Shown: positions 3-16,800 of the stretch, piece after piece
How positions within the stretch are numbered: the first letter of the stretch is position 1
How the letters are laid out: every line of letters begins with the position of its first letter
Virus record (IMG/VR): IMGVR_UViG_3300009685_000011
Span: 1 to 64,000 of that record
Source: a virus
Taxonomy: Duplodnaviria; Caudoviricetes
DNA: 64,000 bases
Reading direction: 5' to 3' (one strand)
The notes under the pieces: generated by a model
Database searches by the model: none
Told to the model about the DNA's origin: nothing
What the model saw: the letters and a program-made list of their open reading frames with translations, nothing else
Made by a program: the position numbers and the translations under genes

Positions 3-3000
3 GGTGATTTAAAATTTATCGCAAAAGGAAACAAAATAGTTCCTCTTCTTAAGTTTGACTTTAATAAAAAGACCAGATTTGAACACCCCAAAGAGATAAA
101 CACTGATGATTTGATTGAGGCTCTTAAAAAAGCAAGGATTAATGTCTTTAAAGATTGGGTAGGTCAGGAGGTTTTGTTTCCTATTATATTTAACGGAGGG
201 CTTCAGTTTAGCAAAGTAAACTTTAATGATTTTTATCTTGACCATCACCAGACTACTTATCGTCAAGTTAACGTAGAAGGTAGTAATGAATTTGGCCCAA
301 TCAAATCTCTTTTGTTTGATGTTGAAACCCAAGCAGATCAAATAATCAAAGAAAGAGAACAAATACAGGAAAATCCTGTATTTGGAAGTCTTCCTATTGA
401 GAAGGATTCTATTCATTCTACTCTTGACGTAATTAAAGAGTTTCCTACTTTAATCAATAAAGTAAAAGGAATAAATAACGATGTTCTGGTTATTTTAAAC
501 TCTCTTTTAGAGAACAAACAAGTACAAGAAAGACTAAAAGACTCCACTGTAACTTTTACTACACAATACGGGCAAGACTTTAAGGGTATCTCTGGCGGTA
601 AAGAAATACTTGTAAACTTTTATCTACATACCAACCCTGAATTTTTTGTAGAATTAGTTGCACACGAAGTCATTCATACACTTACAGCAGACTGGGTTAC
701 TTCCAATTCTACTGACCCATTAGTAGAAAGATTGGAAGAACTTGTTAGACAAGTTCCTGAGTCTGTTGTGAATCTTATTGGAGACCAAGGATATGGTAAA
801 GATGATCCAAGATTCAAACTCGAAGTCTTGGCAAGACTTAGTGATCCCAAGGTTGCTAAGGAATTAAAAAAGATAAAAACAGGAAAGAAGAATTTCCTTG
901 ATACCTTAAAAGATATTGTAAAAGAAATACTCGGTAAAATATTCGGTATTAACAGTCAGTCTACTTTGTATTCAGACTTCCTTGAAAATCTTATCGAAAT
1001 CAGTACCAAGGTTAAAGAGAAAAAAGAACACACTTCTATATACGATCAGTTTAGTATATCTGATCTTGGAGATCTTACTTTTGGTTATTCTCAAGAAGAT
1101 GTTGACACTATTCAAAATAAATTCAGCCCTGTTTATTTGGAACAAGCCATTAATAGACTGAATGGTGAAATATTTCATTTTATTCACTCTAAAGGTGGAA
1201 GTAATCAGTTTCTTAATGGAGAAGTTAGTTTTGATAAAGTGTTCTTGCACTATTATCAATCAGTAGTAGATTATCTAAAAGCCAACGAAGGTAAGGTAGG
1301 AAAAGAAGAACACGACTTCTTGTTTGAGTTTCTTCTTAAAAACAGAGACTTTGTAAAAGACTACTGGATAGAAAATACTAATCTGGCTTCTTTGAGAAAA
1401 CCAAAGAAAGGAGAATACATATCTGATAAAGTTGTAGAAGACTATGAACCTTTAAGTGATCCTAATGAAGTCACAGATAGTGAAAACGAGGAAAAAGAAA
1501 AAGACCTTCGTGATATAACCGGAGGAGAAGATATTAATGAAAAGACATTTGACTTTGACAGGTCTGGTGTAGAACAGTCTTCTTTAGAAGCAGCAGATCC
1601 TATCAGTAGGGCTTTTGTAAAAATGATTCCCAAGATTGAAAGAGGAGAAGAAGGTACTAAAATCTACTCTGATGAAGATCGTAAAAAAGCAATAGATAAT
1701 GGTGCTAAGTCAGATCATTTTGTTTCAGTTCCAGGAGGTTTCATTAAATATGAAACTGATGAGACTAACTCAATAGTTCTAAATGACTATACTCAAAACT
1801 GGAACCTGATGGGTATTCATTTTCAAGGAAAAATGTCCTTGGAAGAAATGCTTAAATCTATAGATGATACACCAAGTCTTATTGACGTAGTTCCTGAAAT
1901 TTATGTATTTAAAGACAGATTAAGTCTTGACATTAAAAACGATTCTCAATTTACATTAAATGCTTCTTTGGAACGTGCCTTTAAAAAAGCATTTGTAAAT
2001 ACTTATGTTCTTATTAGAAACGAAGATGGTAGACTTTACTTGGTGAATGAAAGTAAAGACCTCACCACGATAGGAAAACGAAAAATAGACTCTGGTTTTC
2101 TTCAAACTATAGATGAAAAATATCCTCAGTTCTACGAAAGAGAAACAGATGAAGTTAGAATCAAGGCTCTTGTAGAATTTCTTAGAAGCAGAAAAGAAAA
2201 CGAGAACAAATCTCTTAGTGAACTTTTGGGGTTTGGATTTCACCCCAAGACCATCAAAAACAACGGGGTATTTACTTCGGAGATTACAAACTTTGACGAG
2301 CATCTTGAGAACATGTTCACTAACACTGAACTTGTTAATGTTCCTATTTCTATCTCTGAAATAATATTTAAAGGAACTTATGTAGGAAACAAAAAAATAG
2401 ATGGTGCTGCTGGTTTAGCCAAATCAGTTCTTAAACTGGAAGATAAGAATCGTCCTCTTAGTGCTACCACAGTGATTAAAAACGCAGAAGGAGAAAATCA
2501 ATCTACACTGTCTGTTCTTAACAGTATTCTTCAGTATAGAGAAATCTTAAACAACGCTCAGACCATTGAAGAACTTAACGAAAAAATGGAGAGGACTAAA
2601 AACCCTCTGTTTAATTATTCGTTGACAAAAAAAGCACTGTTCACTACTCTGTTAAACGAAAGTACTAATGAACTTGTAGAAGAAAGAACTAACGTTAAAG
2701 TAGATATAGGTCTTTTTAACGGATTCAAACAAGAGCAAAAAGGTAGAGCAACAAAAGGTAAACTTACAATTGATCTGGAAGGTGCAGATTGGTTAATGTT
2801 GAATTTTGTAGGGATGATTAAAGGAGGGATTATAGAAAATACTCGTGCTGAAACAGCCTCTACTTCTTACTATTTCAAGTTGACTAATTGGAGCAACGAA
2901 GTAGGTACGAGTGATACTCCTTTGAAAATTAGTGATGTTTTTTCTCAATACAACAAGAGAGAAGGAAAAATAAACATCTCCAAAGAATCAAAGATATTTA

Positions 3001-6000
3001 ATATTTGGTCAGATTACTTTAAGGGTAATCTTGAGAGGATGAATCTACAACAGTCTGACAAGTGGGGTCTTTTTGACTTCTTATCCAGGGAAGGAAAAGA
3101 GATTCTTAGAGACGGTCTTAACGAAGATGTTTTACTTGATGAACTTAACTCTTTCTTTAATAAAGAGTCAGACGAGTTTAGAAGAATGTTCGATCAAGAA
3201 ATAGGTGGTTATGAAGCAATAGTAGGTGATGCTATGGTCTTAGATAAACCTACTTACGGAGATAGAGAACTCTGGAACAAGATTAAAGGATTTGAAGAAG
3301 AGTACAAGGCTTTCTATGTATTGAATTCAATGATTATTCACACCGAAGAGACTATTCTTTTTCAGGGTGATCTTAGCCAAACTCCCAAGTACTACAAGAG
3401 AGCAAAAGGTGTACAATCTACCGGAACTCCTGTAAGTCAATCTCCTTCATTAGTTCAATGGGTAAACAAGTCTCTTGAGAATAATTCTATTGCTGTTGCT
3501 TTAGGATTTACACCCACCCAAATAGGTAAGAACTATTTGAGTTCCACTATGAAGGATGATGAAAAACCTTCTGCTTACAAAGACAGGTTCTTAGATGGTT
3601 TTGTAAAGTCTCAAAAACTGTACTATAGTTCAATCGGAGTAAATATCTCCGAGGATCAACTTAGAGAAACTGCACAAAATCTTCTTGTTCCCAAAACCAA
3701 AAAAGGAGAAGGTAACTATGGTATGGTAAATATTGGAGATGGTGCTGCGTATACCCATCCTGATTTTCATTATGCTACTCTCAAATTAATAGGTAACATT
3801 TCTACTGAACAACAAAAAGTTTATGAGGCTCTTGTACTTGATACTATTAAAAACTCGAAAGAGTATTTTGGAATAGAATCAAGACAAATTACAGAATCTG
3901 AAGAAAAAAAGATTAAGGAAGGTTTTGCTCTCTTAGCAGAGGGAAAAGGACAGTTTCCTCTCATTAAGTTTACTTATCGCAATACCATGAGTAACTCTGA
4001 TTCCGTAGTTAAGGAAGAGGTCATGGATAAGTTTGCTTTGTTTCCTTTGTTTCCACAGTTTGTTCACGACAAACCTGTAGCAAAAGAAATGCTGAAAAGC
4101 ATGATGAAAGAAGGTCTTGGTTATGTAAAGTTCCAGTCAGGTACCAAGATTGACACTACTCCTCCTATTGATTTCATAGGCATGGTTGAAAAAGGAGAGG
4201 TAGATGTTAGTTTTGAAAACTTCACACATGAACTTTCTACAGAATTTTTAAGAGAACAGATCAAAACCCCCAACAAGCACAAAACTAAGAACACATTTGG
4301 ATCTCAGGTTAGAAAAAATATCCTGGCAGAACTTGGTCAGGTTAAACTCTCACGAGAAGAAAACAAGGGAGACTTTAAAAGAAAATGGGAAAAACTAAAC
4401 CAGGAATTTTCTCTTGCACTTAAAAGAGAAATTCTCGGCAGGTTTAAAATCAAAGAAACTGCTCCTGACCAGTGGGATTTCACCAAAGTAGATAAAGCAC
4501 AAGTTGCTCAAATTCTTTTGGAAGAGTCCACCAGAAGAGAACTACCTTATAATCTAAAAGTGTTCTTTGATAAGTATCGCAGAGGAATATTTAAAGAAGC
4601 ACAGTTGATTTCTGCGTATGATCTTTTTGAATCTTCTATGGGTGCTCCACAGATTCAAAACTTGCTCGCATCTATTATTAAGAAGATCAGTATTCAAAAA
4701 CTGAAAGGCGCTCAATACCGTCAGGTAGCAAGTTCTCCTTTTGATCGTAAAATTAAATCAGAAGGTAAAACAAGAGAATTGGGTTTTTACGAATTTAACG
4801 AAGAAGGTACTAAAGCAGCAGAATGTAAAATAGGTATGGGTGGAGATTTCCTTAATCTCTTAAACCTTAAGGACATCACTAACTATATAGAGTACAGACA
4901 ACAAGAAGATACCATTTTTAACAGACTTAGTGCCCTCAATAAAAAACTTGAAGATGATGCTTGGGTAGAAGCACACAAAGATGTTCTTACAATAGCATCT
5001 TATCGTATTCCTAACCAAGGTCATAACTCTGACGAAGTGTTTGTCATTCGAGAGTTCTTACCTCCTATGCACGCTGGCGAAATTATCCTTCCTCCAGAAG
5101 TAACTACTCAATCTGGTACTGACTATGACTATGATAAAATGAGTGCTATTGTACCTTCTATTAATAAAGACGGTACTTTAGTAACAAAAGGTTCTAAAGG
5201 TATTCAGAACGAAATGATTAAGACTTTTTCTGATATTCTTTTAGACCCTGTTAATTATTGGAAACTGATTGTACCTAACTCCAATCAGATTATTTTCGAT
5301 CTATTAAAAGAAAAGTTACTTCCTAAACTTTATCCCAACCTAAAGTTAGATTCTTTCTCACCATCAGAGATTATTACTCTTGGAAGAAACTATCGCCAGT
5401 TTAAATCAGTACAAGGTAAAAACCTCTTAGGTATAGCAGCAGTGTGGAATCCTTTTACTACCATACTTCAGAATCACAACATTCGTGTAAACTCGATCTA
5501 TAAAAAGAAAGTAGGATTTGGTACAGAGGCTTTTTTTATTGAGGTTCCAATTAACCCTTTGTTTGGTTCTACTGACGTTTCCCTTTACACCAAGGACAAT
5601 CTTAATAAATTAGAAGTCATATCTCAACTTATTAACGTTACCGTAGATATGCCTTCAGATGATACCTTTGGTATGTCTGTGTTTACACAAGATGACTTCA
5701 GTGCTTTTATTTACGGAATGTCTCTTTTGAATTACGGGTTTGAGAATTCGATGATGTTTTTTCACCAACCTATTATTTATAAATTTAAAGACCTTATAAG
5801 TAAAACAGTAAGAAAAGGTTATAAAAAGAGTCGTGCTAATCTTATGGTTGCACACAAACTTTTAGACATTGAGTTAATCAAAACTCAAGATGGTAATATT
5901 AACGTTCGTAAATCAGAAGCAAATCTTTTTAAAAAACTAACAGAGATAGAAAAGTCTCTTAACAGTGAACTTTTAGCAGGTCAACTCAAGAGCGTAGAAG

Positions 6001-8786
6001 AAGCAGTTCAAGTAGAAAGATTTTCAGATCAACAAAAGGCTGTTTTAGCACACTACTTAAAGTTGTTAGATCAGGCTAATCAAGTTAGAACTGTACAATC
6101 TGCTCTCAACTTTGATACATCTCCTGATAACAACCTTGCCAAAACAAGAGATAGACAAAAAGATTTTATAGAAGCACAACTTTCAGAAATCATTCCTTAT
6201 GAAAAAATAATCGAGGTGAAAGAAGATTCTGTTATCTCTGGTCTATATGTAAGTGTTATTTACGAAAGTCTTGTTTCCGAGATATTTCCGGTGCTTTATT
6301 CCAGTAAAACTAAAGAAGCATTTGACCAATTAAGGGATAAGTTTGTAGAACACTCTGAAGTAGCGTTTAGAAAAGCCACAAATGACTTCCTTCTTGCGAT
6401 AGTTCAAAATTACGGTACCTACAAAAACCAGAACATTACAGACTTTACTCTACCTTATATAAGAGGAGATAAAAAAGCAGACCTTATCAGAGAAGCAACC
6501 AAAATTAAAAAACAACTAAAGGAACAAGGTAAAAGACTTAGACTTTTAGATATTCTTGTAGCCAACACTTCAAGAAAAGGAACTCCTACTTTATCTAATC
6601 CTCAATTAATTATGGGTATGGAGAACTCCTCTGGAGATAAAGATCAGATCACAGAAGAATTCAGAGAACTTCTTAACAACCCTAAGACTAAGGATTTTGC
6701 AGAAACACTTGCTATTGTAGGATTGGTTCAAAGTGGTTGGTCTAAATCACCACTGTACTTTTCGGATGTTATACCTGAAGAGTTTATTACTCCAATAATT
6801 AATAAAGCCCTCAAAGAATACCAAGAGTTATCCAAAATAGATAAAAGAGGTTTCATCATTGCTTTTAAAAGTAATTTTGAAGACTACCAGGCTAAATCTT
6901 TAGGTGGTAGAGGTAACTATGAAGATGCTTATAGAATAATGGACTACACCGTTAACGTTCAGCCTACCATAGAAGCAACAAGAAAGGCTTATGAAGAAAA
7001 GAAAAAAGAAGATGAATTTACAGAGTATGAAGTTATTGAAACTGAAACCAAACAGTTAGGTGGTGGAAACACGATTGATATAAGTCAATTTGTTAACCAC
7101 TCTGGAGGTGCATTGGGAGCAGATAGTGCTTGGGATGAGATAGGTAAAGAATTTGGAATGCTCACCAATAGACACTATTACTTTAAAGACAAAACTCCAA
7201 AAGGCAATATTGAAATTACTCAAGATCAATTTGACGAAGGTATAAAAAAAGCAAATAGTGCTGCCAAAGCAACTTATGGGTTTCAATATTCTTTTAGTGA
7301 TAATAAAGTAGGCAGATTATTGTCTCGTAATTGGCAACAAGTGAAAAACAGTGATGCTGTTTTTGCTATAGGTAAGATTGTTCAAAAGGGAGACAAACTA
7401 TTTGATGATGACAGAATTGCATTAAAACCTGCTGTCAGTGGAGGTACAGGATATGCTGTAGAAATGGCAATTCAAGAAAACAAACCTGTTTATGTATTTG
7501 ACCAAAATAAAAACCAGTGGTTTACTTGGGATGGTTCTGATTTTATTCAAATAGAGACACCGACTTTAACCAAGAATTTTGCAGGAATAGGTACAAGACA
7601 GATCAACGAACAAGGTAAACAAGCAATAAAAGATGTTTATCAAAAGACTATAGAACAAGGTGTACAACCAGATCCAACTTTAGGGTACAATCAAGAATCT
7701 TTAGAAGCAAAAGAAATACAAATCAGTTATGGATCAGAAGACAATTACTTGGAGGCACTTAAAAAAGTGTCTGAACAAAGAGGAAAAATTAAATGGGAAG
7801 ATGTATTTAGAAATTACTCCAGATTTCCTCAAAGAGTTAAAAACGCTCTTACACGTTCTTCAACATTACGAGAAAATGATAAATTATTTTCCGGTGGATC
7901 ATTTGAGACTTCCGGGAGAAGAATAGAATCTATTCAAGATTTAGCAGATTTATATCTGGTTCACAGAAGTCCTACTATTGAAAAACTACACTATATCTTT
8001 TTGAAAAACAATGAAATTGTAGCCACTCATGCTGCCACAGCGGGATTAGTAAACAGGACTGCTAAGTTTAATAAAGGGTTGTTTGAAAAAACCTACGAAG
8101 AAAGTGGAGCAGACTCAGTTTATTTACTACACAACCATCCTTCTGGAAATCACCTGCCTTCTGATGCTGATTTGTTGATGACTCATCAAATTACCAAAAG
8201 TAGTAACGTAAATTTTAAAGGACAGTTAATAATCAATACAGATAAATTCTCCTTTATCCCTGCAACAAAGGATATATTTAAATATTTGGAATATGAAGAA
8301 GTAGATTACAAGAAGAAACCAGATGTTTTATTTAAAACAAGGATAACCTTAGGAACTTCTACAAAACAAATTACCAACTCGTTAAAGCAAATTGGAGATA
8401 TTTTACTTAAAGAACCAGGTATAAATTCTGTAATTTACTTAGATGTTTATGCTACAATAGTTGGTTACGATTCATTTACTGACGGAGATGTTTCTAAAAT
8501 TGATTTTCAAGACCAAATGAAAAAGAAGGGTGCTTATTCTTATGTAATCTTTAGTCCTTCTAAAGAAAGTAATGATGCAGTAGAGTCTTCCAGCAATCAT
8601 GTCAAAGGTTATTCTTCCTTCTATCTTGAAAATGGACAGATAAAAGCATCTCTTAGATTTGATAAAGAGTTTACCAATCAGGTTGATTTGGAGCCTAACC
8701 AAATACAGTTTTGGGAGAAGGTGTTTTTTCAACCTGAAGATGTCTTGGATACTATTACACAACCAAAAATATGTACTAAGATGTAA
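3..8786 (+). CDS. Giant virion-packaged RNA polymerase, crAss-like (phi14:2 gp66-type), 5'-partial; extra zincin-like, SLOG-like and JAB/RadC domains
   Basis: Frame is open from base 3, so the start lies upstream of the window. Motif YRIPNQG...EFLPP...GEIILP.EVTTQSGTDYDYDK with DYDYD at 5121-5135 matches the crAss-like RNAP DFDID-type catalytic loop. HEVIH at 663-677; HSGGALGAD...SGGTGYA at about 7098-7460; HNHPSGNHLPSDAD at 8130-8171. Confidence 0.9.
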   Translation, partial: GDLKFIAKGNKIVPLLKFDFNKKTRFEHPKEINTDDLIEALKKARINVFKDWVGQEVLFPIIFNGGLQFSKVNFNDFYLDHHQTTYRQVNVEGSNEFGPIKSLLFDVETQADQIIKEREQIQENPVFGSLPIEKDSIHSTLDVIKEFPTLINKVKGINNDVLVILNSLLENKQVQERLKDSTVTFTTQYGQDFKGISGGKEILVNFYLHTNPEFFVELVAHEVIHTLTADWVTSNSTDPLVERLEELVRQVPESVVNLIGDQGYGKDDPRFKLEVLARLSDPKVAKELKKIKTGKKNFLDTLKDIVKEILGKIFGINSQSTLYSDFLENLIEISTKVKEKKEHTSIYDQFSISDLGDLTFGYSQEDVDTIQNKFSPVYLEQAINRLNGEIFHFIHSKGGSNQFLNGEVSFDKVFLHYYQSVVDYLKANEGKVGKEEHDFLFEFLLKNRDFVKDYWIENTNLASLRKPKKGEYISDKVVEDYEPLSDPNEVTDSENEEKEKDLRDITGGEDINEKTFDFDRSGVEQSSLEAADPISRAFVKMIPKIERGEEGTKIYSDEDRKKAIDNGAKSDHFVSVPGGFIKYETDETNSIVLNDYTQNWNLMGIHFQGKMSLEEMLKSIDDTPSLIDVVPEIYVFKDRLSLDIKNDSQFTLNASLERAFKKAFVNTYVLIRNEDGRLYLVNESKDLTTIGKRKIDSGFLQTIDEKYPQFYERETDEVRIKALVEFLRSRKENENKSLSELLGFGFHPKTIKNNGVFTSEITNFDEHLENMFTNTELVNVPISISEIIFKGTYVGNKKIDGAAGLAKSVLKLEDKNRPLSATTVIKNAEGENQSTLSVLNSILQYREILNNAQTIEELNEKMERTKNPLFNYSLTKKALFTTLLNESTNELVEERTNVKVDIGLFNGFKQEQKGRATKGKLTIDLEGADWLMLNFVGMIKGGIIENTRAETASTSYYFKLTNWSNEVGTSDTPLKISDVFSQYNKREGKINISKESKIFNIWSDYFKGNLERMNLQQSDKWGLFDFLSREGKEILRDGLNEDVLLDELNSFFNKESDEFRRMFDQEIGGYEAIVGDAMVLDKPTYGDRELWNKIKGFEEEYKAFYVLNSMIIHTEETILFQGDLSQTPKYYKRAKGVQSTGTPVSQSPSLVQWVNKSLENNSIAVALGFTPTQIGKNYLSSTMKDDEKPSAYKDRFLDGFVKSQKLYYSSIGVNISEDQLRETAQNLLVPKTKKGEGNYGMVNIGDGAAYTHPDFHYATLKLIGNISTEQQKVYEALVLDTIKNSKEYFGIESRQITESEEKKIKEGFALLAEGKGQFPLIKFTYRNTMSNSDSVVKEEVMDKFALFPLFPQFVHDKPVAKEMLKSMMKEGLGYVKFQSGTKIDTTPPIDFIGMVEKGEVDVSFENFTHELSTEFLREQIKTPNKHKTKNTFGSQVRKNILAELGQVKLSREENKGDFKRKWEKLNQEFSLALKREILGRFKIKETAPDQWDFTKVDKAQVAQILLEESTRRELPYNLKVFFDKYRRGIFKEAQLISAYDLFESSMGAPQIQNLLASIIKKISIQKLKGAQYRQVASSPFDRKIKSEGKTRELGFYEFNEEGTKAAECKIGMGGDFLNLLNLKDITNYIEYRQQEDTIFNRLSALNKKLEDDAWVEAHKDVLTIASYRIPNQGHNSDEVFVIREFLPPMHAGEIILPPEVTTQSGTDYDYDKMSAIVPSINKDGTLVTKGSKGIQNEMIKTFSDILLDPVNYWKLIVPNSNQIIFDLLKEKLLPKLYPNLKLDSFSPSEIITLGRNYRQFKSVQGKNLLGIAAVWNPFTTILQNHNIRVNSIYKKKVGFGTEAFFIEVPINPLFGSTDVSLYTKDNLNKLEVISQLINVTVDMPSDDTFGMSVFTQDDFSAFIYGMSLLNYGFENSMMFFHQPIIYKFKDLISKTVRKGYKKSRANLMVAHKLLDIELIKTQDGNINVRKSEANLFKKLTEIEKSLNSELLAGQLKSVEEAVQVERFSDQQKAVLAHYLKLLDQANQVRTVQSALNFDTSPDNNLAKTRDRQKDFIEAQLSEIIPYEKIIEVKEDSVISGLYVSVIYESLVSEIFPVLYSSKTKEAFDQLRDKFVEHSEVAFRKATNDFLLAIVQNYGTYKNQNITDFTLPYIRGDKKADLIREATKIKKQLKEQGKRLRLLDILVANTSRKGTPTLSNPQLIMGMENSSGDKDQITEEFRELLNNPKTKDFAETLAIVGLVQSGWSKSPLYFSDVIPEEFITPIINKALKEYQELSKIDKRGFIIAFKSNFEDYQAKSLGGRGNYEDAYRIMDYTVNVQPTIEATRKAYEEKKKEDEFTEYEVIETETKQLGGGNTIDISQFVNHSGGALGADSAWDEIGKEFGMLTNRHYYFKDKTPKGNIEITQDQFDEGIKKANSAAKATYGFQYSFSDNKVGRLLSRNWQQVKNSDAVFAIGKIVQKGDKLFDDDRIALKPAVSGGTGYAVEMAIQENKPVYVFDQNKNQWFTWDGSDFIQIETPTLTKNFAGIGTRQINEQGKQAIKDVYQKTIEQGVQPDPTLGYNQESLEAKEIQISYGSEDNYLEALKKVSEQRGKIKWEDVFRNYSRFPQRVKNALTRSSTLRENDKLFSGGSFETSGRRIESIQDLADLYLVHRSPTIEKLHYIFLKNNEIVATHAATAGLVNRTAKFNKGLFEKTYEESGADSVYLLHNHPSGNHLPSDADLLMTHQITKSSNVNFKGQLIINTDKFSFIPATKDIFKYLEYEEVDYKKKPDVLFKTRITLGTSTKQITNSLKQIGDILLKEPGINSVIYLDVYATIVGYDSFTDGDVSKIDFQDQMKKKGAYSYVIFSPSKESNDAVESSSNHVKGYSSFYLENGQIKASLRFDKEFTNQVDLEPNQIQFWEKVFFQPEDVLDTITQPKICTKM

Positions 8787-8917
8787 TAGTTATTTTCTTT
8801 CGTTATATAACGATGAAAATATTTATAAGTAACCTGTAAATCAAATAATTATAAAGACTTCGTTTTACTTTTTAATAAAAATTACGATTTAATACTACAG
8901 AAAAGTAAAATTATGTT

Positions 8918-8925
8918 TACTTTTG
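8918..8925 (+). promoter_or_regulatory. Candidate Bacteroidota housekeeping-sigma -7 promoter element (TAnnTTTG)
   Basis: TACTTTTG in the AT-rich intergenic gap, 33 nt upstream of the RepL-like ATG; no clear -33 TTTG. Confidence 0.5.
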
Positions 8926-8958
8926 TAAAATATTTTTACATATAAACACATCTGTAAT

Positions 8959-9438
8959 ATGAATCCTTTTATCAGTCAAGAGTCATTTAAACTTAAAGTG
9001 TTAGAAATTAAAAAGACCACTCACAAGATAGACACGTCTAATATTCCTGAAGATGGAGTTATTGTAGGTGATTATGAAACAGTTACTCGATCTTTTTTAA
9101 TAGAACAACAGAAGAAAAAAAGCATGTATGATGTTCCTTATTTAGATAATATTTTATTTGGAGAACTTACGTCACGAAGTAGAGATTTGTTTCTTTATGT
9201 TTTAAATCACGCTCCGCAAGACTTGGACTATATCAATCTAAAGCAATCAATAGTTTGTAGGAATATCAGAATGAGCAAACCGACTTTAATATCTGCCATT
9301 AAAGAACTTTCTGATGTAGGGGTGATTTGTAGAAAATCACAATCTGAATACTGGATTAATCCCTATTATATTTTTAGAGGAAACAGAGTTAAATTTTATC
9401 AAGAAAACTATCCTAACAAAATAGAAAAACTTAATTAA
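8959..9438 (+). CDS. RepL-like winged-helix DNA-binding/replication protein
   Basis: C-terminal HTH-wing pattern SKPTLISAIKELSDVGVI...YWINPYYIFRG typical of the RepL family. Confidence 0.7.
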   Translation: MNPFISQESFKLKVLEIKKTTHKIDTSNIPEDGVIVGDYETVTRSFLIEQQKKKSMYDVPYLDNILFGELTSRSRDLFLYVLNHAPQDLDYINLKQSIVCRNIRMSKPTLISAIKELSDVGVICRKSQSEYWINPYYIFRGNRVKFYQENYPNKIEKLN

Positions 9439-9440
9439 CT

Positions 9441-10325
9441 ATGTGGATAAACATAATCACTGCTATAATCAATATTCTTAAATACTTATTTAAAAAGAAA
9501 GACCAGACTCAAGTAAATGAACAGGTATATCAAGAAATAAAAGATACTCCTAAAGTAGAAGAAATCAAACCAGTAGAAGAGCCTGTTAACCAAACAATTA
9601 ATCCAATACAATCTGTAGAACCTATAGGAACTGTAGAAACTGTAAAACCTAATCTTAATATAATCCAGAAGTTACTACCACCTAATCAGTATGTCCAAGA
9701 TTCAAAATTTAAACCTAATTCTATTTGTCTACACCATACAAACGGTCACTCTTGGCAGAGTACTTATAATTATTGGGCTTCTGACAACGGATTACGAGTA
9801 GCAACCCATTTTTTAATAGATCGAGACGGGAGTGTAATTCAGTGTATACCATTGGAAAAGGCTTGGGGGTTTCATATCAATATTGCCGCCAAAGACAACA
9901 AAATCCCAACCAAGTACAAAAATCTTGGAAGAAAATATGATATGCAATCAATTGGAATAGAATTATGTTCTATGAGTCAAGTTACTCCCTATAACGGAAA
10001 GTTTTTAGATACTTATGGAAAAGTATTTAAGGGAGAAATAACTAAATTAAATAAACCTTTTAGGGGGTTTGAATACTTTGAGTCTTACACTAAAGAACAA
10101 ATAAACGCCTTAGGATTATTACTTTTGCATTTACTTGACGAGTATCCAAAAATAAAAGAGGGGTTGTATGATAATTACGAAAATAAGTTCGATATTAACC
10201 AAGATGCATTAGAAATGAAACCTGGTATATTTTTTCATGTGAGTTATCGAACAGGTACTAAGTGGGATTTGTATCCACATTCGGGTTTAATAACAATGTT
10301 AAACGATTTAAAAAACAAAATATGA
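9441..10325 (+). CDS. N-acetylmuramoyl-L-alanine amidase (amidase_2-type endolysin)
   Basis: ICLHHT, ATHFLIDRDG...IPLE..W, SIGIEL, FHVSYR..KWDLYP Zn-amidase motifs; hydrophobic N-terminus plus low-complexity linker. Confidence 0.85.
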   Translation: MWINIITAIINILKYLFKKKDQTQVNEQVYQEIKDTPKVEEIKPVEEPVNQTINPIQSVEPIGTVETVKPNLNIIQKLLPPNQYVQDSKFKPNSICLHHTNGHSWQSTYNYWASDNGLRVATHFLIDRDGSVIQCIPLEKAWGFHINIAAKDNKIPTKYKNLGRKYDMQSIGIELCSMSQVTPYNGKFLDTYGKVFKGEITKLNKPFRGFEYFESYTKEQINALGLLLLHLLDEYPKIKEGLYDNYENKFDINQDALEMKPGIFFHVSYRTGTKWDLYPHSGLITMLNDLKNKI

Positions 10326-11206
10326 TAGTAGACAATGGAAAATATTATGTTTATAGACATGTAAGATTAGATACAAATCAAGTATTTTACATAGGAATTG
10401 GGAGTAAAGTTAACAGATCTAATGGAAAATCTATGTATCAAAGAGCATTTTCAAAATCAGATAGAAATAAGTTTTGGAAATCTATCGTATCTAAAACTAA
10501 ATACGAAGTAGAAATTTTATTAGAGTCAGATGATTACGAGTTTGTACAAAGTAAAGAAATAGACTTTATTAAAATGTATGGCAGAAGAAATACTGGTAAA
10601 GGCACTTTATGTAATTTAACTGATGGGGGTGAGGGGGTTATGGGAGTATGTTATTACACAACTGAAGAAATGGTCGATAAATTTAAACAAATACATGGCG
10701 ATAAATATGATTATTCTAAATTTATATATAATAATTTTCTTAAAAAAAGTACAATTATATGTAAAAAACATGGTGAGTTTTTACAAACCCCAGAAAATCA
10801 TTTAAAATCACAAGGATGCCAAAAGTGTGGAAACGAAAGTAGAGTAAGGAGAGAGAGTAAAATAAAAAATTATGCAAAAATATTTGTAGATAAATTAAAG
10901 CAAATCTACCAAGATAGATTTGATTATTCTTTTATTGAATATACAGGTCAACGAAACAGAGTAAAACTTATATGTGCTTTACACGGAGAGTTTACTCAAA
11001 CTCCTATGGATTTATTAAATGGTCACAGTTGTCAAAAATGCGGAAGAAGTAATATTTCAAAAAGTAAACGAAAAGGTTCATCGGAACAAATTGAATATAT
11101 ACAACAGCAACTGTTAATAGGAAAAAGCATACGCGAAATTAGCAAACAAGTTAATCTGTCACGGGATGTAGTTTCTTATATTAAAACTCACGGATATAAA
11201 GATTAG
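10322..11206 (+). CDS. Free-standing GIY-YIG-like homing endonuclease with two Cys/His-rich repeats
   Basis: YYVYRH...FYIGIG...R...E..FI..YGR N-terminal domain; two repeats Y(D/S)YS..Y......IC..HGEF.QTP..(H/L)L.G..CQKC. Start placed at the ATGA overlap with the amidase stop. Confidence 0.8.
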   Translation: MIVDNGKYYVYRHVRLDTNQVFYIGIGSKVNRSNGKSMYQRAFSKSDRNKFWKSIVSKTKYEVEILLESDDYEFVQSKEIDFIKMYGRRNTGKGTLCNLTDGGEGVMGVCYYTTEEMVDKFKQIHGDKYDYSKFIYNNFLKKSTIICKKHGEFLQTPENHLKSQGCQKCGNESRVRRESKIKNYAKIFVDKLKQIYQDRFDYSFIEYTGQRNRVKLICALHGEFTQTPMDLLNGHSCQKCGRSNISKSKRKGSSEQIEYIQQQLLIGKSIREISKQVNLSRDVVSYIKTHGYKD

Positions 11207-12593: not shown

Positions 12594-13796
12594 ATGATTA
12601 TACTTGATTCAACTACAAAAAAACTACAAGCGTATACTTCTGCTACACCAACAACAGACCTTACTTACTATGTGTCTTATATAGATATGTCTTCTTTAGC
12701 CGTATCTAATATAGCCTCCAGTAATGGGACTTTTGATGAAACAGAAACAGACATAGTATCTGCTCCAGGTGCCTCTACACAAAGGCAAGTTAAATATATG
12801 TCTTTGTATAACGCTGATTCTCAAATTCAAACCGTTACTGTAGTTTTAGATGTGTCTGGTACAAACACAGTTCTTGCTCAAGTCTTACTACAACCAGGTT
12901 ATACTCTTACTTACAATAATGACGGTAAGTGGGAGATAATCAATGGAGCACAAGTAATGGATGAGGGGTTTTTATTAAGCGGAGTAGCAGCAGAACCTTC
13001 TGCTCCATCAGAAGATACTATGTGGTTTTACGCTAAAAACATAAGTGGCAGAATGCTACCTAAATGGAAAGGGCCATCAGGTTTAGACACAGCAGTACAA
13101 CCTGGTTTGTTTCAGAATAACATTATGATGCTACTTCCACAAATCTCTACCACAATAACATTATGGGGTACTACTAACACATCAGTAGGTACTGTTTCTC
13201 ACCCCGCGCTTGCTGCTACTAATCTTAGGACTTCAATGCGTAGATGGATATGGACTTCTGCTGCTACTGCTAATGCGGCATCTGAAGGTAGAACAGTAGC
13301 AAGTTTAGTTTGGAGAGGAAATTCCGCAGGGTTAGGTGGGTGGTATTATGCTTGTAGATGGGCCATATCTTCTTCCACTGCTAATCAACAAGTGGCAGTA
13401 GGACTATGGAATGCAACAGGTGCTACAGCAACTACTACAGTACCCTCGAATTTAACTAACTGTATATTTGTAGGATGGGATTCAGCAGATACCAACTTAC
13501 AAGTAATGCATAACGATGCTTCTGGTACTTGCACTAAAATTGACTTAGGAGCATCTTTTCCTGCTAACTCTACTACGGCTGTTTATGAATTTATGATGTT
13601 TGCTCCCCCTAACGGATCTTCTGTATTTTATCGAGTAGTAAGATTAGACACAGGAGATGTAGCAGAAGGAGAAATTACTACAGACTTACCTGCTTCAACT
13701 ACGTTTTTAACTCGTCACGAGTATATGAATAATGGTGGCACTGCTGCGGCTGTAATTCTTGAAGTATCTCGTATTTATATTGAAACTGATTATTAA
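12594..13796 (+). CDS. Tail fibre/spike-like protein, possible receptor-binding C-terminal beta domain
   Basis: 400 aa, T/S/A/G-rich, PSAPSEDTMWFYAK fibre module, beta-rich C-terminus; positional context. Confidence 0.55.
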   Translation: MIILDSTTKKLQAYTSATPTTDLTYYVSYIDMSSLAVSNIASSNGTFDETETDIVSAPGASTQRQVKYMSLYNADSQIQTVTVVLDVSGTNTVLAQVLLQPGYTLTYNNDGKWEIINGAQVMDEGFLLSGVAAEPSAPSEDTMWFYAKNISGRMLPKWKGPSGLDTAVQPGLFQNNIMMLLPQISTTITLWGTTNTSVGTVSHPALAATNLRTSMRRWIWTSAATANAASEGRTVASLVWRGNSAGLGGWYYACRWAISSSTANQQVAVGLWNATGATATTTVPSNLTNCIFVGWDSADTNLQVMHNDASGTCTKIDLGASFPANSTTAVYEFMMFAPPNGSSVFYRVVRLDTGDVAEGEITTDLPASTTFLTRHEYMNNGGTAAAVILEVSRIYIETDY

Positions 13797-13800
13797 AACT

Positions 13801-16800
13801 ATGAACTGTAAACTTCCACACATATCAGCATTAGATAATTCCCGTCAGTTCTTAATTGATCTTGAAGCAATAGACGACTCTAATAAAATATTAGATGATA
13901 TCGCTTTTGACTCAATTGTTAAAGAATTAGAACAAGACAACATTAAAGCCTATCAGGTATCTGGTAAACCCTGGTTACGAGATGTAACTAAAGGAGGTGA
14001 AATTGCTATACCTAATATAGAGGTTTTAAACAAAATAGATCAGAAAAGAAAAGACTTGGGTCTTTACGAAGATCAGTTGAGTGCTGACTTGTCAGAAGAC
14101 AGTGACATTATTCCACCAAATGAACAAGTAGGTTATCAATTTAGAGTTGTTAATGCTTTACAATCGGACAAAGTAAGGCAGCCTAAATTAGATAATCTAC
14201 AGGGATTTTATAATGACCTTCAGAAACAAGGTATACCAAGTCAACAAATAGACTTAGTTAAAGATATTTTATCTGATGTTAAAGGAAGTGTCACTAAGGA
14301 CGATATTATTAAAGAGTTGCTGTTAAAATACAGTTATGGTGTTGAGATTGAAACATCCAAATACAAATATCCGTATAATGCTTCTGATCCTGATTACGAT
14401 AGTCAAGGAAATATTATTCACAACGGCGATCCAACTTCTTACTATTCTGACTTAACTGTAGGGCCAATTAAAAACTACAAAGAAAATAATATTATTGTTC
14501 CTGGTATTACTCCAAGTATCCGTGCGCACGGACAATTTTCTACAGATAATACTATTGGTTGGACACGGACATGGGAATATGATAGTATTCCTAACACTTT
14601 AATTATAGGAGAATTACAGTCGGACTTGTTTCAGAAAAGTAGAGATAAAGGTAATTTAATTTCAGCCGATTCTGAAGATTCTAATTTTGGAATTTTAGAA
14701 TTAGAAAACGGACAATTTGCTGTTGGATATTCTGATAATACAATTATTAATAAGTTTGATACAAGGGAAGAAGCAATTGAAGAAGCAACAAGATTAGTTA
14801 ATATAAAAAAAGATAATAATCAAAACAAATTTCTTCAACTCTTAAACAAAGATAATCAATGGGTTACATTCTTCACCCGATCAATTATCCAGGACAGTGC
14901 TAAAAGAGGTTATGAAAAAGTACTGTTTCCAACAGGTAATACTGCTGCTAAAATAGAGGGACATACTACTATAGAAGAAGAAGAAAGAACAATTAAAGAA
15001 GATATAGAAAAGATAAAAAAAGGTGACATTGAAACATTACGCAATAAGACAATTTCAGAAACCACTTCTCCAAAAGTAGAAAATCAACACGATTACCAAG
15101 GAACAACTAAAGAAGGAGAGAATTTTGTAAATTTAGATCGCACAAAGGGTTACAGCGCTCCAAGGCATTTACATAGATTTACATTAGAAGATTTAGACAA
15201 TCCTAATTTTGAAGAAAGGTATATATATTTTGAACCTACCAGAGATATAGTACATGAATACAGTTACGCGATAAGAGAAAACGGAAAGTATTATAAAAGC
15301 GTCGGGTTTATGGAAAGAGAAGAAATTACCAAAGAAGAATTTATTGAGTTGTATAAAGTAGAAAAAGAAAAACTCGATAAATTAATTAATAGCAAATTAC
15401 TTAAAAATCAAATTGAATACTTAGAAAACAAATTAAAGTATCTTAATACACACGGGTTTGGCGCATTACAACCTATTTTTAAATTCTATGAAGAAACAGT
15501 AGGTAATATTCTTAAAAAGAATTATAAAGATAAAGTCAATCGTATTACTGATGAGTATGGCAATCAGTGGTGGGAACTTAATATAGATAGAAGTAGGGAT
15601 TTAACTGATATAATGTTTCAATTTGAATCTTCTCAACTACCCATCGAAGTAACACCAGAACTAAAGTCTACATTAGAACAGTTTGCTAAAAAACTAAACC
15701 CAGACTTTAAAATAGAAGTTCTTGATGACCTACTTAAAACTAAAGGATTAAACGGTATTGCTAACTTAAAGAACTTTTCTATTCAACTTCAAAGAGGTAA
15801 AGAGTCAGCCTTAGCCGAAGAGGTAAGTCACTTTCTAATAGAGTTGATGGAAGATTCCAACCCTCTTAAACAAACTATGAGGGACGAGATCACAAGAACT
15901 CGACTCTACAAAATGGTTAGAAATAGTCCTGACTACAAGCAAGCCTATGGTAATAACGTAGATTTACTTAAGAGGGAAGCAATGGCTAAACTTGTCAGTT
16001 TGTATCTAACTGATAAAGAATTATTTAAATACTATAGTGGGTCTGACTCTTTGGTAGAAAATCTTGTAAGGTGGATCAAAGACTTCTTTAGATGGGTAAA
16101 AGGAAAGTCTTCTTCAATTGGTTCTTTTATTAAGGCTGCTGAAAAAATAGTAAACCTTGACACCGAAGGATTAACAAGAGATAGAAACCTTCTTGTAGAG
16201 CAAATGTATTCTTTTGGAGAATTTGCTCAAGAGTCTACCGTACTTACTACAGTGGGTAATTTAAATACTCGTCTTTACAATAAGGTCTACATAAATATCA
16301 GTGATACAGTACTTGACTCCAGTAATTATTTCTCTGGTTCCGAAAGCGAAAAGAAATCAGTATTAATGGGAGAAAATCCTGAAACACTTAAAGAGTTTTT
16401 TGCAAATGCTGACTTTACTCACTTGGGTAGAGAACTTGTAGACAAAGTAAGCACTCAAGGAATTACTAACGTAGAATTTTATACGTCTCTTCCTTATGAT
16501 GAGGTTTTAGTTGAAAGGTTTGATTACGCTTTTCCTGGAGCAGAGATTCACTTCTTAAATAAAAGACAACTTCTTGAAGATGAGGATGGAAATCTGATAG
16601 AAGTAATAACTAACACTACAGAAGACTTCTTGAACAAGTCTAAAGAGTCAGGAGAAAAAGCAGTCTTTATAGATAACAAACCTCCTACCAGAGAATTAAA
16701 CATCGAGTATAGAAACTATCGAAACAGCAGGGCTAAGGTTTACGAATCTTTCTTGGATAGAATTCGTAGAAAAGATTCTTCTGAACAAGACAAACTAAAA

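What the first reader, a model, noticed from the sequence alone, without database searches (positions are those of the whole stretch)
3..8786. Virion RNA polymerase built as a polyvalent protein (zincin + RNAP + SLOG + JAB)
Seen: one >=2927-aa frame with HEVIH, the RNAP catalytic loop, and about 550 extra C-terminal residues holding two more enzyme-like domains. Established: crAss-like phages inject a giant RNAP (phi14:2 gp66), and zincin, RadC/JAB and SLOG domains recur in polyvalent conflict proteins of phages and conjugative elements. Inference: this RNAP doubles as a delivery vehicle for anti-defence or host-takeover enzymes active before any phage gene is expressed. I do not recall this combination described on a crAss-like RNAP, but cannot check.
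Basis: partly seen in the sequence, partly recalled or inferred. Interest (0 to 1): 0.8.

Follow-up and report, generated by a model that had tools for sequence, protein, structure and literature searches.

The report
CrAss-type virion polymerase with swappable cargo
This giant gene of an uncultured sludge phage is a real crAss-type virion RNA polymerase. It is fused to a zincin-like domain and to two exchangeable enzyme cassettes (SLOG and RadC/JAB) that are probably injected with the DNA. The principle is known, but this carrier and this combination are not described in the papers I could search.

Summary
Window 3..8786 is one open frame of 2927 aa, cut by the contig start; a full-length twin has 3385 aa.

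- **Zincin-like region:** it holds HEVIH and aligns weakly with the HExxH domain of an N4-like vRNAP.
- **RNAP core:** it has the phi14:2 gp66 fold (6VR4; Foldseek E 2.8e-24, profile E 7e-39).
- **SLOG domain:** the fold is closest to cpYpsA (3imk, Z 11.5).
- **RadC JAB domain:** it scores above the Pfam cut-off and keeps the full E…HxH…S..D motif.

An independent wastewater contig carries the same RNAP-SLOG-JAB fusion, so it is not an assembly artefact. A soil contig replaces exactly the SLOG cassette with 2.4 kb of other sequence.

Among 87 relatives the core is conserved but the cargo varies: Pif1-like helicase, SLOG, NADAR, AlkB, RNase H, ART and others. Cargo differs even between cores that are 90-98% identical. 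SLOG similarity does not follow core similarity, and the same module sits in N4-like vRNAPs.

The zincin+RNAP fusion is published. Zincin+RNAP+SLOG already stands in RefSeq Suoliviridae, annotated "DprA-like". JAB on such a polymerase was found only here. This scan has noted similar cassettes on crAss-type polymerases in other genomes.

Injection and any anti-defence role are inferred, not shown. I rate it a new variant of a known kind.

The parts
3..8786 (+). Giant ORF, 2927 aa in the window, cut at its 5' end by the contig start (full length 3385 aa in twin P0002). It is a virion-RNAP polyprotein.
540..935 (+). Zincin-like (MPTase-type) region. HEVIH lies at nt 663-677, and a candidate third-ligand Glu lies in LEVLARLSDP at nt 819-848.
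   Evidence: HExxH is kept in 66 of 87 relatives. hhalign places it on the HExxH region of the N4-like Pylas vRNAP (prob 52%, E 1.5e-4); BLAST gives 43 bits. There is no Pfam, PHROG or PDB hit. The ESM Atlas gives a lead to LPD23/LPD1 polyvalent-protein clusters.
3600..7022 (+). RNAP core (aa 1200-2340) with two double-psi beta-barrels, phi14:2 gp66 type.
   Evidence: AF2 model pLDDT 86, pTM 0.85. Foldseek top hit 6vr4_A, E 2.8e-24, TMq 0.68. Family profile against PDB: 6vr4_A, E 7.3e-39.
5121..5135 (+). Catalytic DxDxD loop (SGTDYDYDK), preceded by YRIPNQGHNS at nt 5001-5030.
   Evidence: G, D, D, D and K are invariant in alignments A1 and A4. D[FY]DxD is present in 85 of 87 relatives.
4782..4826 (+). 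Surface loop (GFYEFNEEGTKAAEC), empty here. In relatives it is a cargo slot holding ART-PolyVal, a P-loop kinase-like insert or a ParB-like insert.
6993..7067 (+). Charged Glu/Lys-rich linker ending in GGG, between the conserved core and the first cassette.
   Evidence: The left breakpoint of the cassette replacement in run X6 is at nt 7067.
7068..7667 (+). SLOG cassette (aa 2356-2555), cpYpsA-like, with motifs NHSGGALGAD, SGGTGYAV and AGIGTR.
   Evidence: Model part pLDDT 85-98. VIA-align: 3imk_A Z 11.5, followed by LOG, DprA, MoCo-carrier and YpsA chains at Z 5.5-6.0. PHROG DprA-like E 4e-7. Pfam is below cut-off. Run X6 replaces exactly this stretch.
7710..8726 (+). RadC-type JAB module (aa 2570-2908). 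The Pfam core is aa 2644-2745 (nt 7932-8237). The Glu of IEK is at nt 7980-7982 and HNHPSGNHLPSDAD starts at nt 8130.
   Evidence: Pfam PF04002 46 bits against a cut-off of 22.1. PDB 2qlc E 1.2e-5. NCBIfam RadC E 2e-11, below its cut-off. The module extent comes from P0210 and P0214.
8766..8783 (+). Conserved C-terminal tail KICTKM, holding one of only three cysteines of the 3385-aa protein.
8787..9435 (.). Strain-variable 649-nt stretch just after the stop. It holds ORF 8959..9438 (159 aa, no PHROG hit) and is absent from contigs of three other runs.
13759..21213 (+). Second giant ORF of the block (2484 aa), related to cr109_1 gp52. In another phage its homologue P0210 carries the closest JAB module at its N-terminus.

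Best explanation
**What it is.** The ORF encodes the virion RNA polymerase polyprotein of a distant crAss-like phage from activated sludge or wastewater, with a genome of about 140 kb. Its parts run in this order:
1. An N-terminal part of about 640 aa, most of it lying beyond the window's start.
2. A zincin-like HExxH domain.
3. A long helical region.
4. A two-barrel RNAP of the phi14:2 gp66 type.
5. A charged linker.
6. A cpYpsA-like SLOG cassette.
7. A RadC-type JAB cassette.
8. A short conserved tail ending in a cysteine.

**How it most likely works.** By homology with phi14:2 gp66 and crAss001 gp47/49/50, the protein is packed in the capsid and ejected, partly unfolded, ahead of or with the DNA. 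It then refolds and transcribes early genes. This step is inferred.

The C-terminal domains are cargo that uses the polymerase as a vehicle, so they are present in the cell before any phage gene is expressed. The cargo consists of exchangeable cassettes placed at a few fixed slots, and this modularity is shown here. The slots are between the core and the tail, in a loop about 100 aa before DxDxD, and in the N-terminal part.

**Likely activities.**
- The SLOG domain most likely binds or cleaves a nucleotide or an ADP-ribose-derived molecule, or an ADP-ribosylated nucleic acid.
- The RadC JAB domain, with an intact metal site, most likely processes nucleic acid or nucleotides rather than ubiquitin-like tags.
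- Together they would protect the entering genome or blunt nucleotide-based immunity.
- The zincin-like domain may release the modules by cleavage.

These activities are all inferred.
For: **RNAP identity.** The fold matches 6VR4. The family profile hits 6VR4 at E 7e-39 and cr109_1 gp53 at E 1e-69. DxDxD is invariant.

**crAss-like genome.** A relative with 53-65% identity, the same synteny and a complete 142-kb genome has a TerL that matches only crAss-like phages.

**Packaging precedent.** Relevant passages are in 10.1101/2020.03.07.982082 and PMC10172136.

**Cargo variability.**
- The 87 relatives share the core but differ after about aa 2790 of P0002. They carry Pif1-like helicase (22), this SLOG module (8), cpYpsA (6), DUF7831 (6), NADAR (3), AlkB (2), RNase H, ART-PolyVal and His-phosphatase.
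- Cores that are 90-98% identical differ by whole cassettes.
- A soil contig replaces nt 7068-7665, exactly the SLOG module, with 2377 other nt and keeps the JAB module.
- SLOG identity is decoupled from core identity: 57% against 29% for P0060, 39% against 65% for P0003, and 49% to the N4-like Pylas vRNAP, whose polymerase is unrelated.
- The closest JAB module sits on the homologue of the neighbouring giant ORF in another phage.

**Domain integrity.** The JAMM residues are intact. The SLOG module has invariant N-H-x-G-G-A-x-G-x-D, G-G-T and A-G-x-G-x-R positions.

**Cysteine depletion.** The cargo has no cysteine, like the rest of the protein, which has 3 Cys in 3385 aa.

**Published predictions.** Viral YpsA-like SLOG domains are predicted to act on ADPr derivatives (PMC9503650). 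RadC in polyvalent proteins is predicted to process nucleic acids or nucleotides, and the MPTase to process the polyprotein (PMC5512222).
Against: - There is no proteomic or transcript evidence for this phage, so packaging and ejection rest on homology only.
- The SLOG module is below the Pfam cut-offs (DprA E 0.023, cpYpsA E 0.06) and has no sequence-profile hit in PDB. Its ligand is unknown, and the Glu of the LOG-type PGGxGTxxE motif is not conserved in the module.
- The JAB part of the model is low-confidence, because the alignment used for that model held no JAB homologues.
- The zincin assignment is only moderate, and HExxH is missing from 21 of the 87 relatives, some of them full-length. 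Cleavage by it is therefore not a general requirement.
- SLOG and JAB never co-occur elsewhere, so they are unlikely to be a functional pair.
- Partner domains such as helicase, primase and RNase H fit a cis role in handling phage DNA as well as they fit counter-defence.
Confidence: 0.7

Rival explanations
1. The C-terminal domains are accessory parts of the polymerase or ejection machinery that act in cis on the phage's own DNA, not effectors against the host. For example, a DprA-like SLOG domain could hold the entering single- or double-stranded DNA end or load the RNAP, and the JAB domain could act as a maturation peptidase or DNA-end processor.
For: - DprA chains are among the structural neighbours (Z 5.7-5.9).
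- The commonest cargo in relatives is a Pif1/Dda-like helicase, and the SLOG module is also found fused to primases and RNase H. These are all DNA-handling functions.
- The N4 vRNAP needs its HExxH-containing C-terminal domain for encapsidation (PMC5512222).
Against: - An essential cis part should not be gained, lost and replaced between 90-98% identical polymerases, or between strains.
- P0006 has neither a SLOG nor a complete JAB domain.
- The closest structure is cpYpsA, not DprA (Z 11.5 against 5.9).
- Other cargo in the same slots (ART-PolyVal, NADAR, AlkB) is typical of conflict systems.
Confidence: 0.2
2. The cassettes are selfish or neutral passengers that insert into tolerant linkers of a very large gene and give the phage no benefit.
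For: Turnover is fast, cassette and core histories disagree, and the breakpoints are sharp. The genome also carries homing endonucleases; the HNH gene at 10262-11206 is absent from the relative.
Against: - Catalytic and binding motifs are intact and strongly conserved across hundreds of carriers.
- The cassettes carry no endonuclease or intein signature.
- They share the extreme cysteine depletion of the carrier. I read this as adaptation to the same route, though that is my inference.
Confidence: 0.07
3. The fusion is an assembly or sequencing artefact that joins separate genes.
For: The record is a metagenome assembly and a fragment (CheckV 55%).
Against: - The same fusion stands on a second contig of different length (P0002, contig 60,698 bp).
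- It also stands on a contig from an independent 2025 wastewater study, unbroken across nt 6000-8733.
- Relatives show the same kind of in-frame fusions.
Confidence: 0.01

Closest known systems
Cellulophaga phage phi14:2 gp65 (zincin-like), gp66 (virion RNAP, PDB 6VR4) and gp67; crAss001 gp47/gp49/gp50
   Same: It has the same two-barrel RNAP fold and DxDxD site. A zincin-like domain lies upstream. It sits at the end of the structural gene block, next to a second giant gene. Fusion of the three proteins into one polyprotein in some phages is published.
   Different: Sequence identity is about 14%. This protein adds a SLOG and a RadC JAB domain after the polymerase. No such cargo is described for phi14:2 or crAss001 in the papers read.
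Suoliviridae giant RNAP genes in RefSeq: cr109_1 KNV50_gp53 and cr113_1 KNV54_gp38 (4328 aa each), cr130_1 KNV59_gp79 (5801 aa)
   Same: cr109_1 gp53, which I examined in detail, has HExxH, then DFDID, then a SLOG module near the C-terminus that is 45% identical to this one. In cr113_1 and cr130_1 I checked only gene size and the position of the SLOG match. The family profile hits gp53 at E 1e-69.
   Different: They have no JAB domain, and cr109_1 reads TAG as a sense codon. They are annotated only as 'DprA-like DNA recombination-mediator protein', and I found no discussion of the fusion. Core identity to this protein is about 24%.
N4-like (Schitoviridae) virion RNAPs as polyvalent proteins (N4 gp50; Klebsiella phage Pylas gp65; Alteromonas phage PT15-A5)
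   Same: They are giant injected polymerases with an HExxH MPTase domain and extra enzyme domains (PMC5512222). Pylas and PT15-A5 carry the same SLOG module, 49% identical in Pylas. The HExxH regions align weakly.
   Different: Their polymerase is T7-like and single-subunit, unrelated to the two-barrel enzyme here. Their SLOG module lies in the N-terminal third (aa about 960-1250), and their HExxH domain lies after the polymerase, not before it.
RadC-bearing polyvalent proteins of conjugative elements and prophages (Iyer et al. 2017)
   Same: The JAB module, with its N- and C-terminal extensions, is homologous to modules embedded in 2-5.5-kaa proteins that carry LPD domains, ART-PolyVal, DdrB-ParB or SNF2/methylase domains.
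   Different: [quoted passage not shown] Here it sits on a phage virion RNAP. None of 166 JAB-bearing proteins tested has the RNAP core.
cpYpsA ('putative molybdenum carrier') SLOG family, PF12694, PDB 3imk
   Same: It is the best structural match (Z 11.5, 140 of 158 residues, rmsd 3.7). It shares the Gly-rich loop after strand 1 and the GGT motif. PF12694 proper occurs as cargo in six relatives.
   Different: It scores 13.5 bits against a Pfam cut-off of 26.2, so it is a separate family within the SLOG superfamily. No biochemical function is known for either.

Membership tests
crAss-type virion RNAP (phi14:2 gp66-like, two DPBB in one chain) | Overall fold like 6VR4 | tested here: met
   Foldseek 6vr4_A E 2.8e-24, prob 1.00, TMq 0.68 over 1268 columns. 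The next hits are cellular beta' subunits and QDE-1 at E about 0.01.
crAss-type virion RNAP (phi14:2 gp66-like, two DPBB in one chain) | Sequence homology detectable by profile | tested here: met
   hmmsearch with the A4 profile: 6vr4_A E 7.3e-39, two stretches covering both barrels. A single-sequence phmmer found nothing.
crAss-type virion RNAP (phi14:2 gp66-like, two DPBB in one chain) | Catalytic DxDxD on the beta'-like barrel | tested here: met
   DYDYD at aa 1707-1711. It is invariant in A1 and A4 and present in 85 of 87 relatives.
crAss-type virion RNAP (phi14:2 gp66-like, two DPBB in one chain) | Crass-like genome context (end of the structural block; crAss-type TerL) | tested here: met
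   Shown on the syntenic complete relative G001: its TerL hits only crAss-like phages at 24-27% identity. The window's own record lacks the structural block.
crAss-type virion RNAP (phi14:2 gp66-like, two DPBB in one chain) | Presence in virions and ejection into the host; early-gene transcription | not testable with these tools
   Known for phi14:2 and crAss001 only.
Polyvalent proteins (Iyer et al. 2017) | Several domains of disparate biochemistry in one polypeptide, in a virion or late-gene context | tested here: met
   Zincin-like, RNAP, SLOG and JAB domains in one ORF. It is followed by amidase, tail-fibre and giant-ORF genes.
Polyvalent proteins (Iyer et al. 2017) | Combinatorial variation of the domains among relatives | tested here: met
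Polyvalent proteins (Iyer et al. 2017) | Zincin-like MPTase hub domain (HExxH helix plus a Glu on the next helix) | tested here: inconclusive
   HEVIH plus a downstream Glu in LEVLA. hhalign against the Pylas vRNAP HExxH region gives prob 52%, E 1.5e-4. There is no Pfam or PDB hit, and the fold was not modelled.
SLOG superfamily | Rossmannoid fold like LOG, DprA, YpsA and the MoCo carrier, with a Gly-rich loop after strand 1 | tested here: met
   The top eight structural neighbours are all SLOG members: 3imk Z 11.5, then 1rcu, 3uqz, 2iz5, 4ljk, 3maj, 2nx2 and 1weh at Z 5.1-6.0. NHSGGAxGxD is invariant.
Pfam PF12694 cpYpsA / PF02481 DprA | Score above the curated Pfam cut-off | tested here: not met
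   cpYpsA 13.5 bits (cut-off 26.2) and DprA 14.3 bits (cut-off 29.6). It is a related but separate family.
RadC-like JAB (PF04002) | Score above the curated Pfam cut-off | tested here: met
   42-46 bits against a cut-off of 22.1. PDB RadC homologue 2qlc, E 1.2e-5.
RadC-like JAB (PF04002) | JAMM metal site E...HxH-x7-S-xx-D | tested here: met
   The Glu of SPTIEKLHY (aa 2660) and HNHPSGNHLPSDAD (aa 2710-2723), read directly from the sequence.
Bacterial RadC proper (NCBIfam PRK00024 / TIGR00608) | Full-length equivalog score, including the N-terminal HhH part | tested here: not met
   44 bits against a cut-off of 180. Only the JAB part matches.

The most novel reading that the evidence does not exclude
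[quoted passage not shown] Their enzyme cassettes (SLOG, JAB, helicase, NADAR, AlkB, ART, ParB-like and others) are traded at the strain level. The trade reaches across to the unrelated N4-type virion RNAPs and to the polyvalent proteins of conjugative elements.

The conserved cysteines at the two ends of an otherwise nearly cysteine-free 3000-4000-aa chain would be part of the packing, ejection or processing mechanism. In this phage, the SLOG and RadC JAB cassettes would act within seconds of entry on ADP-ribose-derived signals or on modified DNA to disarm host immunity.
Probability: 0.3. Interest if true: 0.75.

Novelty: new variant of a known kind. Interest (0 to 1): 0.55.

Why it matters
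**Timing of delivery.** Crassvirales are among the most abundant phages known, and their injected polymerase is the first phage protein active in the cell. If that protein routinely carries exchangeable enzymes, a large and fast-changing set of pre-expression counter-defence or DNA-care activities has gone unnoticed inside genes annotated only as "RNA polymerase" or "DprA-like".

**Convergent use of the same module.** The same SLOG module sits on two unrelated virion polymerases, crAss-type and N4-type. This convergence points to delivery with the DNA as the selected trait.

**A testable model.** The module also occurs in the cultured phage Pylas, which gives a tractable system for finding what viral SLOG domains do. 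That function is still uncharacterised (PMC9503650).

**A check on an earlier generalisation.** A RadC JAB domain on a phage-type polyvalent protein goes against the 2017 generalisation that RadC is confined to conjugative-element versions.

Tried and rejected
**Searches that found nothing or too little**
- Megablast of the whole gene, and tblastn of aa 1-1000 and 1001-2400, against 50,697 phage records found no match. The core is too divergent for pairwise search.
- Pfam and PHROGs gave no RNAP or peptidase hit on the full protein or on its N-terminal parts.
- phmmer of the single sequence against PDB missed 6VR4; a profile was needed.
- The SLOG profile (A2) against PDB sequences found nothing, and Foldseek gave only a weak top hit (3imk, E 0.083). 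VIA-align settled the fold.
- PADLOC gave only weak ShosA (E 2e-4, a short stretch) and JAB (E 7e-4) hits, too weak to use.
- The ESM Atlas places the HExxH region nearest to LPD23/LPD1 polyvalent-protein clusters at 0.97. This is a lead only, and Pfam does not confirm it.

**Tools and alignments that failed**
- Alignment A3 put the JAB homologues onto the SLOG region and was discarded. The C-terminal model therefore had no alignment depth for the JAB and tail part, which came out below pLDDT 50. No fold statement is made for it.
Relatives' DNA came from the search for related loci and the fetch from genomes instead.
- The cr109_1 major capsid protein found nothing in the related 142-kb genome. 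TerL was used for placement instead.
- The remaining 14.8 kb of the window's own record holds only small minus-strand genes and no structural genes.

**Ideas rejected**
- I considered that the internal insertions in relatives' polymerases were inteins. They differ in kind between phages (ART-PolyVal, a P-loop GHPGIGKT domain, a ParB-like domain, a Lys/Glu-rich helical insert), lack intein end residues, and carry no intein Pfam family.
- I considered SLOG and JAB a co-evolving pair. No other protein among those tested has both.

**Limits of the run data**
- No RNA holder was listed among the public runs.
- The 2377 nt that replace the SLOG cassette in run X6 could not be read with these tools.
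Full report
**Observation.**
Window nt 3..8786 (+) is one open frame of 2927 codons. The ORFs on the other frames and the opposite strand over this stretch are at most 135 aa. The window begins at base 1 of a 78,766-bp virus record that CheckV rates 55% complete, so the gene is cut by the contig end. A database protein, P0002 (3385 aa, seen on a different contig of 60,698 bp), equals the window protein over its last 2927 residues and adds 458 N-terminal residues. HEVIH lies at aa 221 and DYDYD at aa 1707.

**RNAP core.**
Pairwise tools saw no polymerase: Pfam, PHROGs, phmmer against PDB and tblastn against 50,697 phage records all missed it. A word-indexed search found 87 giant relatives of 1.8-4.9 kaa. 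With 24 of them as an alignment, AlphaFold2 modelled aa 1200-2340 at pLDDT 86 and pTM 0.85.
- Foldseek against PDB put 6VR4, the phi14:2 gp66 virion RNAP, far ahead of everything else (E 2.8e-24, TMq 0.68, 14% identity). Cellular beta' subunits and QDE-1 followed at E about 0.01.
- A profile of 15 full-length relatives hit 6VR4 at E 7.3e-39 over both barrels.
- A profile of 25 hit the 4328-aa gp53 of the RefSeq crassvirus cr109_1 at E 1e-69.
- G-x-D-x-D-x-D-K is invariant.

**Genome context.**
The window's record lacks the structural genes. A relative with 53-65% identity lies on a complete 142-kb IMG/VR genome with the same local gene order. Its TerL matches only crAss-like phages, at 24-27% identity. 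This is therefore a distant crAss-like lineage. Public runs that hold it come from activated sludge, wastewater and similar samples.

**Zincin-like region.**
HExxH lies about 1450-1500 aa before DxDxD in 66 of 87 relatives. hhalign places VAHEVIHTLTA and a downstream Glu (LEVLA) onto VMHELIHAATA and AEFIA of the N4-like Pylas vRNAP. That region of N4-type enzymes is where a zincin/MPTase domain has been described (prob 52%, E 1.5e-4; PMC5512222; PMC13434306). I rate this as moderate evidence. The fold was not modelled, and no curated family matches.

**C-terminal cargo.**
The BLAST map shows that relatives are collinear with P0002 up to about residue 2790 (window aa about 2332) and differ after that.
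- *SLOG.* PHROG "DprA-like" gives E 4e-7, and Pfam is only sub-threshold. The model of aa 2320-2927 is confident over aa about 2360-2555 (pLDDT 85-98). VIA-align gives 3imk (cpYpsA, "molybdenum carrier") Z 11.5, rmsd 3.7, 140 of 158 residues. LOG, DprA, MoCo-carrier and YpsA chains follow at Z 5.1-6.0. This is a SLOG fold, closest to cpYpsA, but a family of its own.
- *JAB.* Pfam RadC scores 42-46 bits against a cut-off of 22.1, and the PDB RadC homologue 2qlc gives E 1.2e-5. The Glu, HxH, Ser and Asp of the JAMM site are all present. The module is longer than the Pfam core, about aa 2570-2908, and starts with an I-S-Y-G-S-E-D motif shared by its homologues.

**Is the fusion real?**
An 8759-nt contig from a 2025 wastewater run of another study covers nt 6000-8733 without a break, at about 96% identity. 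Together with the P0002 contig, this excludes a chimera as far as contigs can show.

**Is the cargo variable?**
Yes, at every scale examined.
1. *Among the 87 relatives.* The cargo is Pif1/RecD-like helicase in 22, this SLOG module in 8, Pfam cpYpsA in 6, DUF7831 in 6, NADAR in 3, AlkB in 2, and RNase H, ART-PolyVal and His-phosphatase in one each. RadC occurs only in P0002.
2. *Between near-identical polymerases.* P0003 and P0004 are 92-98% identical where they overlap, yet P0004 has an extra 132 aa inside the polymerase and about 555 aa (a helicase) before the SLOG module. P0006/P0008 and P0015/P0016 behave likewise.
3. *Between strains.* A 44.8-kb soil contig follows the window to nt 7067, carries 2377 other nucleotides in place of nt 7068-7665, and resumes at 7666 through the JAB module to the stop. 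The replaced stretch is exactly the SLOG module. Two further runs break at 7668/7696.
4. *Cassette and core histories disagree.* The SLOG module is 57% identical to that of P0060 (core 29%), 55% to P0036 (core 31%), 49% to the N4-like Pylas vRNAP (whose polymerase is unrelated), 45% to cr109_1 (core 24%), but only 39% to P0003/P0004 (core 65%).
5. *The SLOG module has many other partners.* It occurs alone (about 180-210 aa) or fused to helicase, NADAR, AlkB, ART-PolyVal, RNase H and primase domains in hundreds of other proteins.
6. *The JAB module comes from the polyvalent-protein pool.* Its homologues lie inside 2-5.5-kaa proteins with LPD, ART-PolyVal, DdrB-ParB and SNF2/methylase domains. 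None of 166 such proteins has the RNAP core, and none has the SLOG module.
7. *The closest JAB module sits on a different carrier.* P0210 (53% identity) carries it at the N-terminus of a homologue of the window's second giant ORF (13759-21213), which is itself related to cr109_1 gp52. P0006 keeps only the first ~88 aa of the module, which looks like a remnant.

Cargo also sits at other places. One is a loop about 100 aa before DxDxD, which holds ART-PolyVal in P0041, a P-loop domain in P0008 and a ParB-like domain in P0016, and is empty here at nt 4782-4826. A second site about 20 aa after DxDxD holds Lys/Glu-rich helical inserts. The N-terminal part is a third (His-phosphatase in P0047).

**Mechanism.**
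Shown here:
- the domain identities;
- the single reading frame;
- cassette-wise exchange at fixed slots.

Inferred from phi14:2 and crAss001: the protein is packed in the capsid, ejected partly unfolded, and starts early transcription.

Inferred from the above together: the cassettes travel with it and act before any phage gene is expressed. The cargo's complete lack of cysteine, like the carrier's (3 Cys in 3385 aa), fits a shared route. For the activities I follow published predictions. Viral YpsA-like SLOG domains are predicted to sense or cleave ADP-ribose-derived molecules (PMC9503650). RadC-type JAB domains in polyvalent proteins are predicted to process nucleic acid or nucleotides rather than ubiquitin-like tails (PMC5512222). 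The zincin-like domain may release modules by cleavage. A cis role in handling the phage's own DNA is the main rival. It fits the helicase, primase and RNase H partners, but it does not fit the rapid gain and loss.

**Comparison with what is known.**
- The zincin-gp65/RNAP-gp66/gp67 fusion into one polyprotein is published.
- "Large multidomain proteins" in the crAss transcription block are published without the domains named in the text I could read.
- N4-type vRNAPs are described as polyvalent proteins with MPTase, ART, lysozyme and RNase domains.
- Zincin+RNAP+SLOG stands in RefSeq in cr109_1, where I checked the motifs. cr113_1 and cr130_1 have equally giant genes with a SLOG match near the C-terminus. 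All three are annotated merely as "DprA-like DNA recombination-mediator protein".
- I found no paper in the library that describes SLOG, RadC or other enzyme cargo on crAss-type RNAPs.
- This scan has noted the same phenomenon on other genomes: NADAR+SLOG, ART+SLOG, helicase and "swappable cassettes". The theme is therefore recurrent, though those notes are unpublished AI notes.

**Verdict.**
It is a new variant of a known kind: a polyvalent, injected virion polymerase. The specific points here are:
- the first RadC JAB domain seen on such a polymerase;
- a strain-level replacement of the SLOG cassette caught in public contigs;
- the same SLOG module on two unrelated classes of virion RNAP.

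Function remains untested.

Noticed in passing
window 8766-8783 (C-terminal KICTKM); P0002 residues 17, 2066 and 3382: The 3385-aa protein has only three cysteines: the third residue after the likely start Met (MNC...), one in the RNAP loop AAECK, and one four residues from the end. Across the 87 relatives the Cys frequency is 0.08% (median 2 per protein). Even so, 75 of 87 have a Cys in the last six residues and 59 of 87 in the first ten, whatever cargo precedes the tail. The JAB-bearing polyvalent giants are equally Cys-poor (0.08%).
   Followed up: partly
window 8787-9435 (ORF 8959..9438, 159 aa): Contigs of three other runs join nt 8786 directly to 9436, so this 649-nt stretch with a small ORF (no PHROG hit) is a strain-variable insertion right after the polymerase stop. 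The wastewater run X4 has it.
   Followed up: partly
window 4782-4826 and 5142-5216; relatives P0004, P0008, P0016, P0041, P0009, P0019: Relatives have two insertion hot spots inside the polymerase. The loop GFY...AAECK takes different 110-170-aa domains (ART-PolyVal, a GHPGIGKT P-loop domain, a ParB-like domain). A site about 20 aa after DxDxD takes Lys/Glu-rich helical inserts of about 170 aa. They are not inteins.
   Followed up: partly
window 13759-21213: The second giant ORF (2484 aa) has no PHROG hit and starts with MNC like the polymerase. It is related to cr109_1 gp52 and to P0210. P0210 carries the closest JAB module at its N-terminus, so cassettes move between the giant proteins of the block.
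   Followed up: partly
window 10262-11206: An HNH endonuclease gene lies between the amidase and the tail-fibre genes. It is absent from the syntenic relative L004, so it is probably a mobile homing gene.
   Followed up: no
relatives P0014, P0031-P0044 and others: About a quarter of the relatives, some of them full-length and collinear, lack the HExxH motif. Several distant ones carry a second HExxH domain near the C-terminus. The peptidase site is therefore dispensable or replaceable.
   Followed up: no
window 36584-39867 (minus strand): rIIA- and rIIB-like genes (PHROG E 4e-45 and 1e-8) occur in a crAss-like genome, beside a family-A DNA polymerase (59643-61079) and a glycosyltransferase (61960-63624).
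   Followed up: no
window 7973-7976: The independent wastewater contig (X4) has a 1-nt deletion and a 1-nt insertion three bases apart, just upstream of the JAB catalytic Glu codon (7980-7982). The frame is restored and one or two residues change.
   Followed up: no
L010 (cr109_1 gp53 and gp52): The RefSeq cr109_1 polymerase gene has 71 in-frame stops under the standard code. I did not tally which codon they are, but reading TAG as Gln opened the capsid gene of the same genome, so TAG reassignment is likely. The gene is named after its small SLOG domain, which hides the polymerase from text searches.
   Followed up: partly
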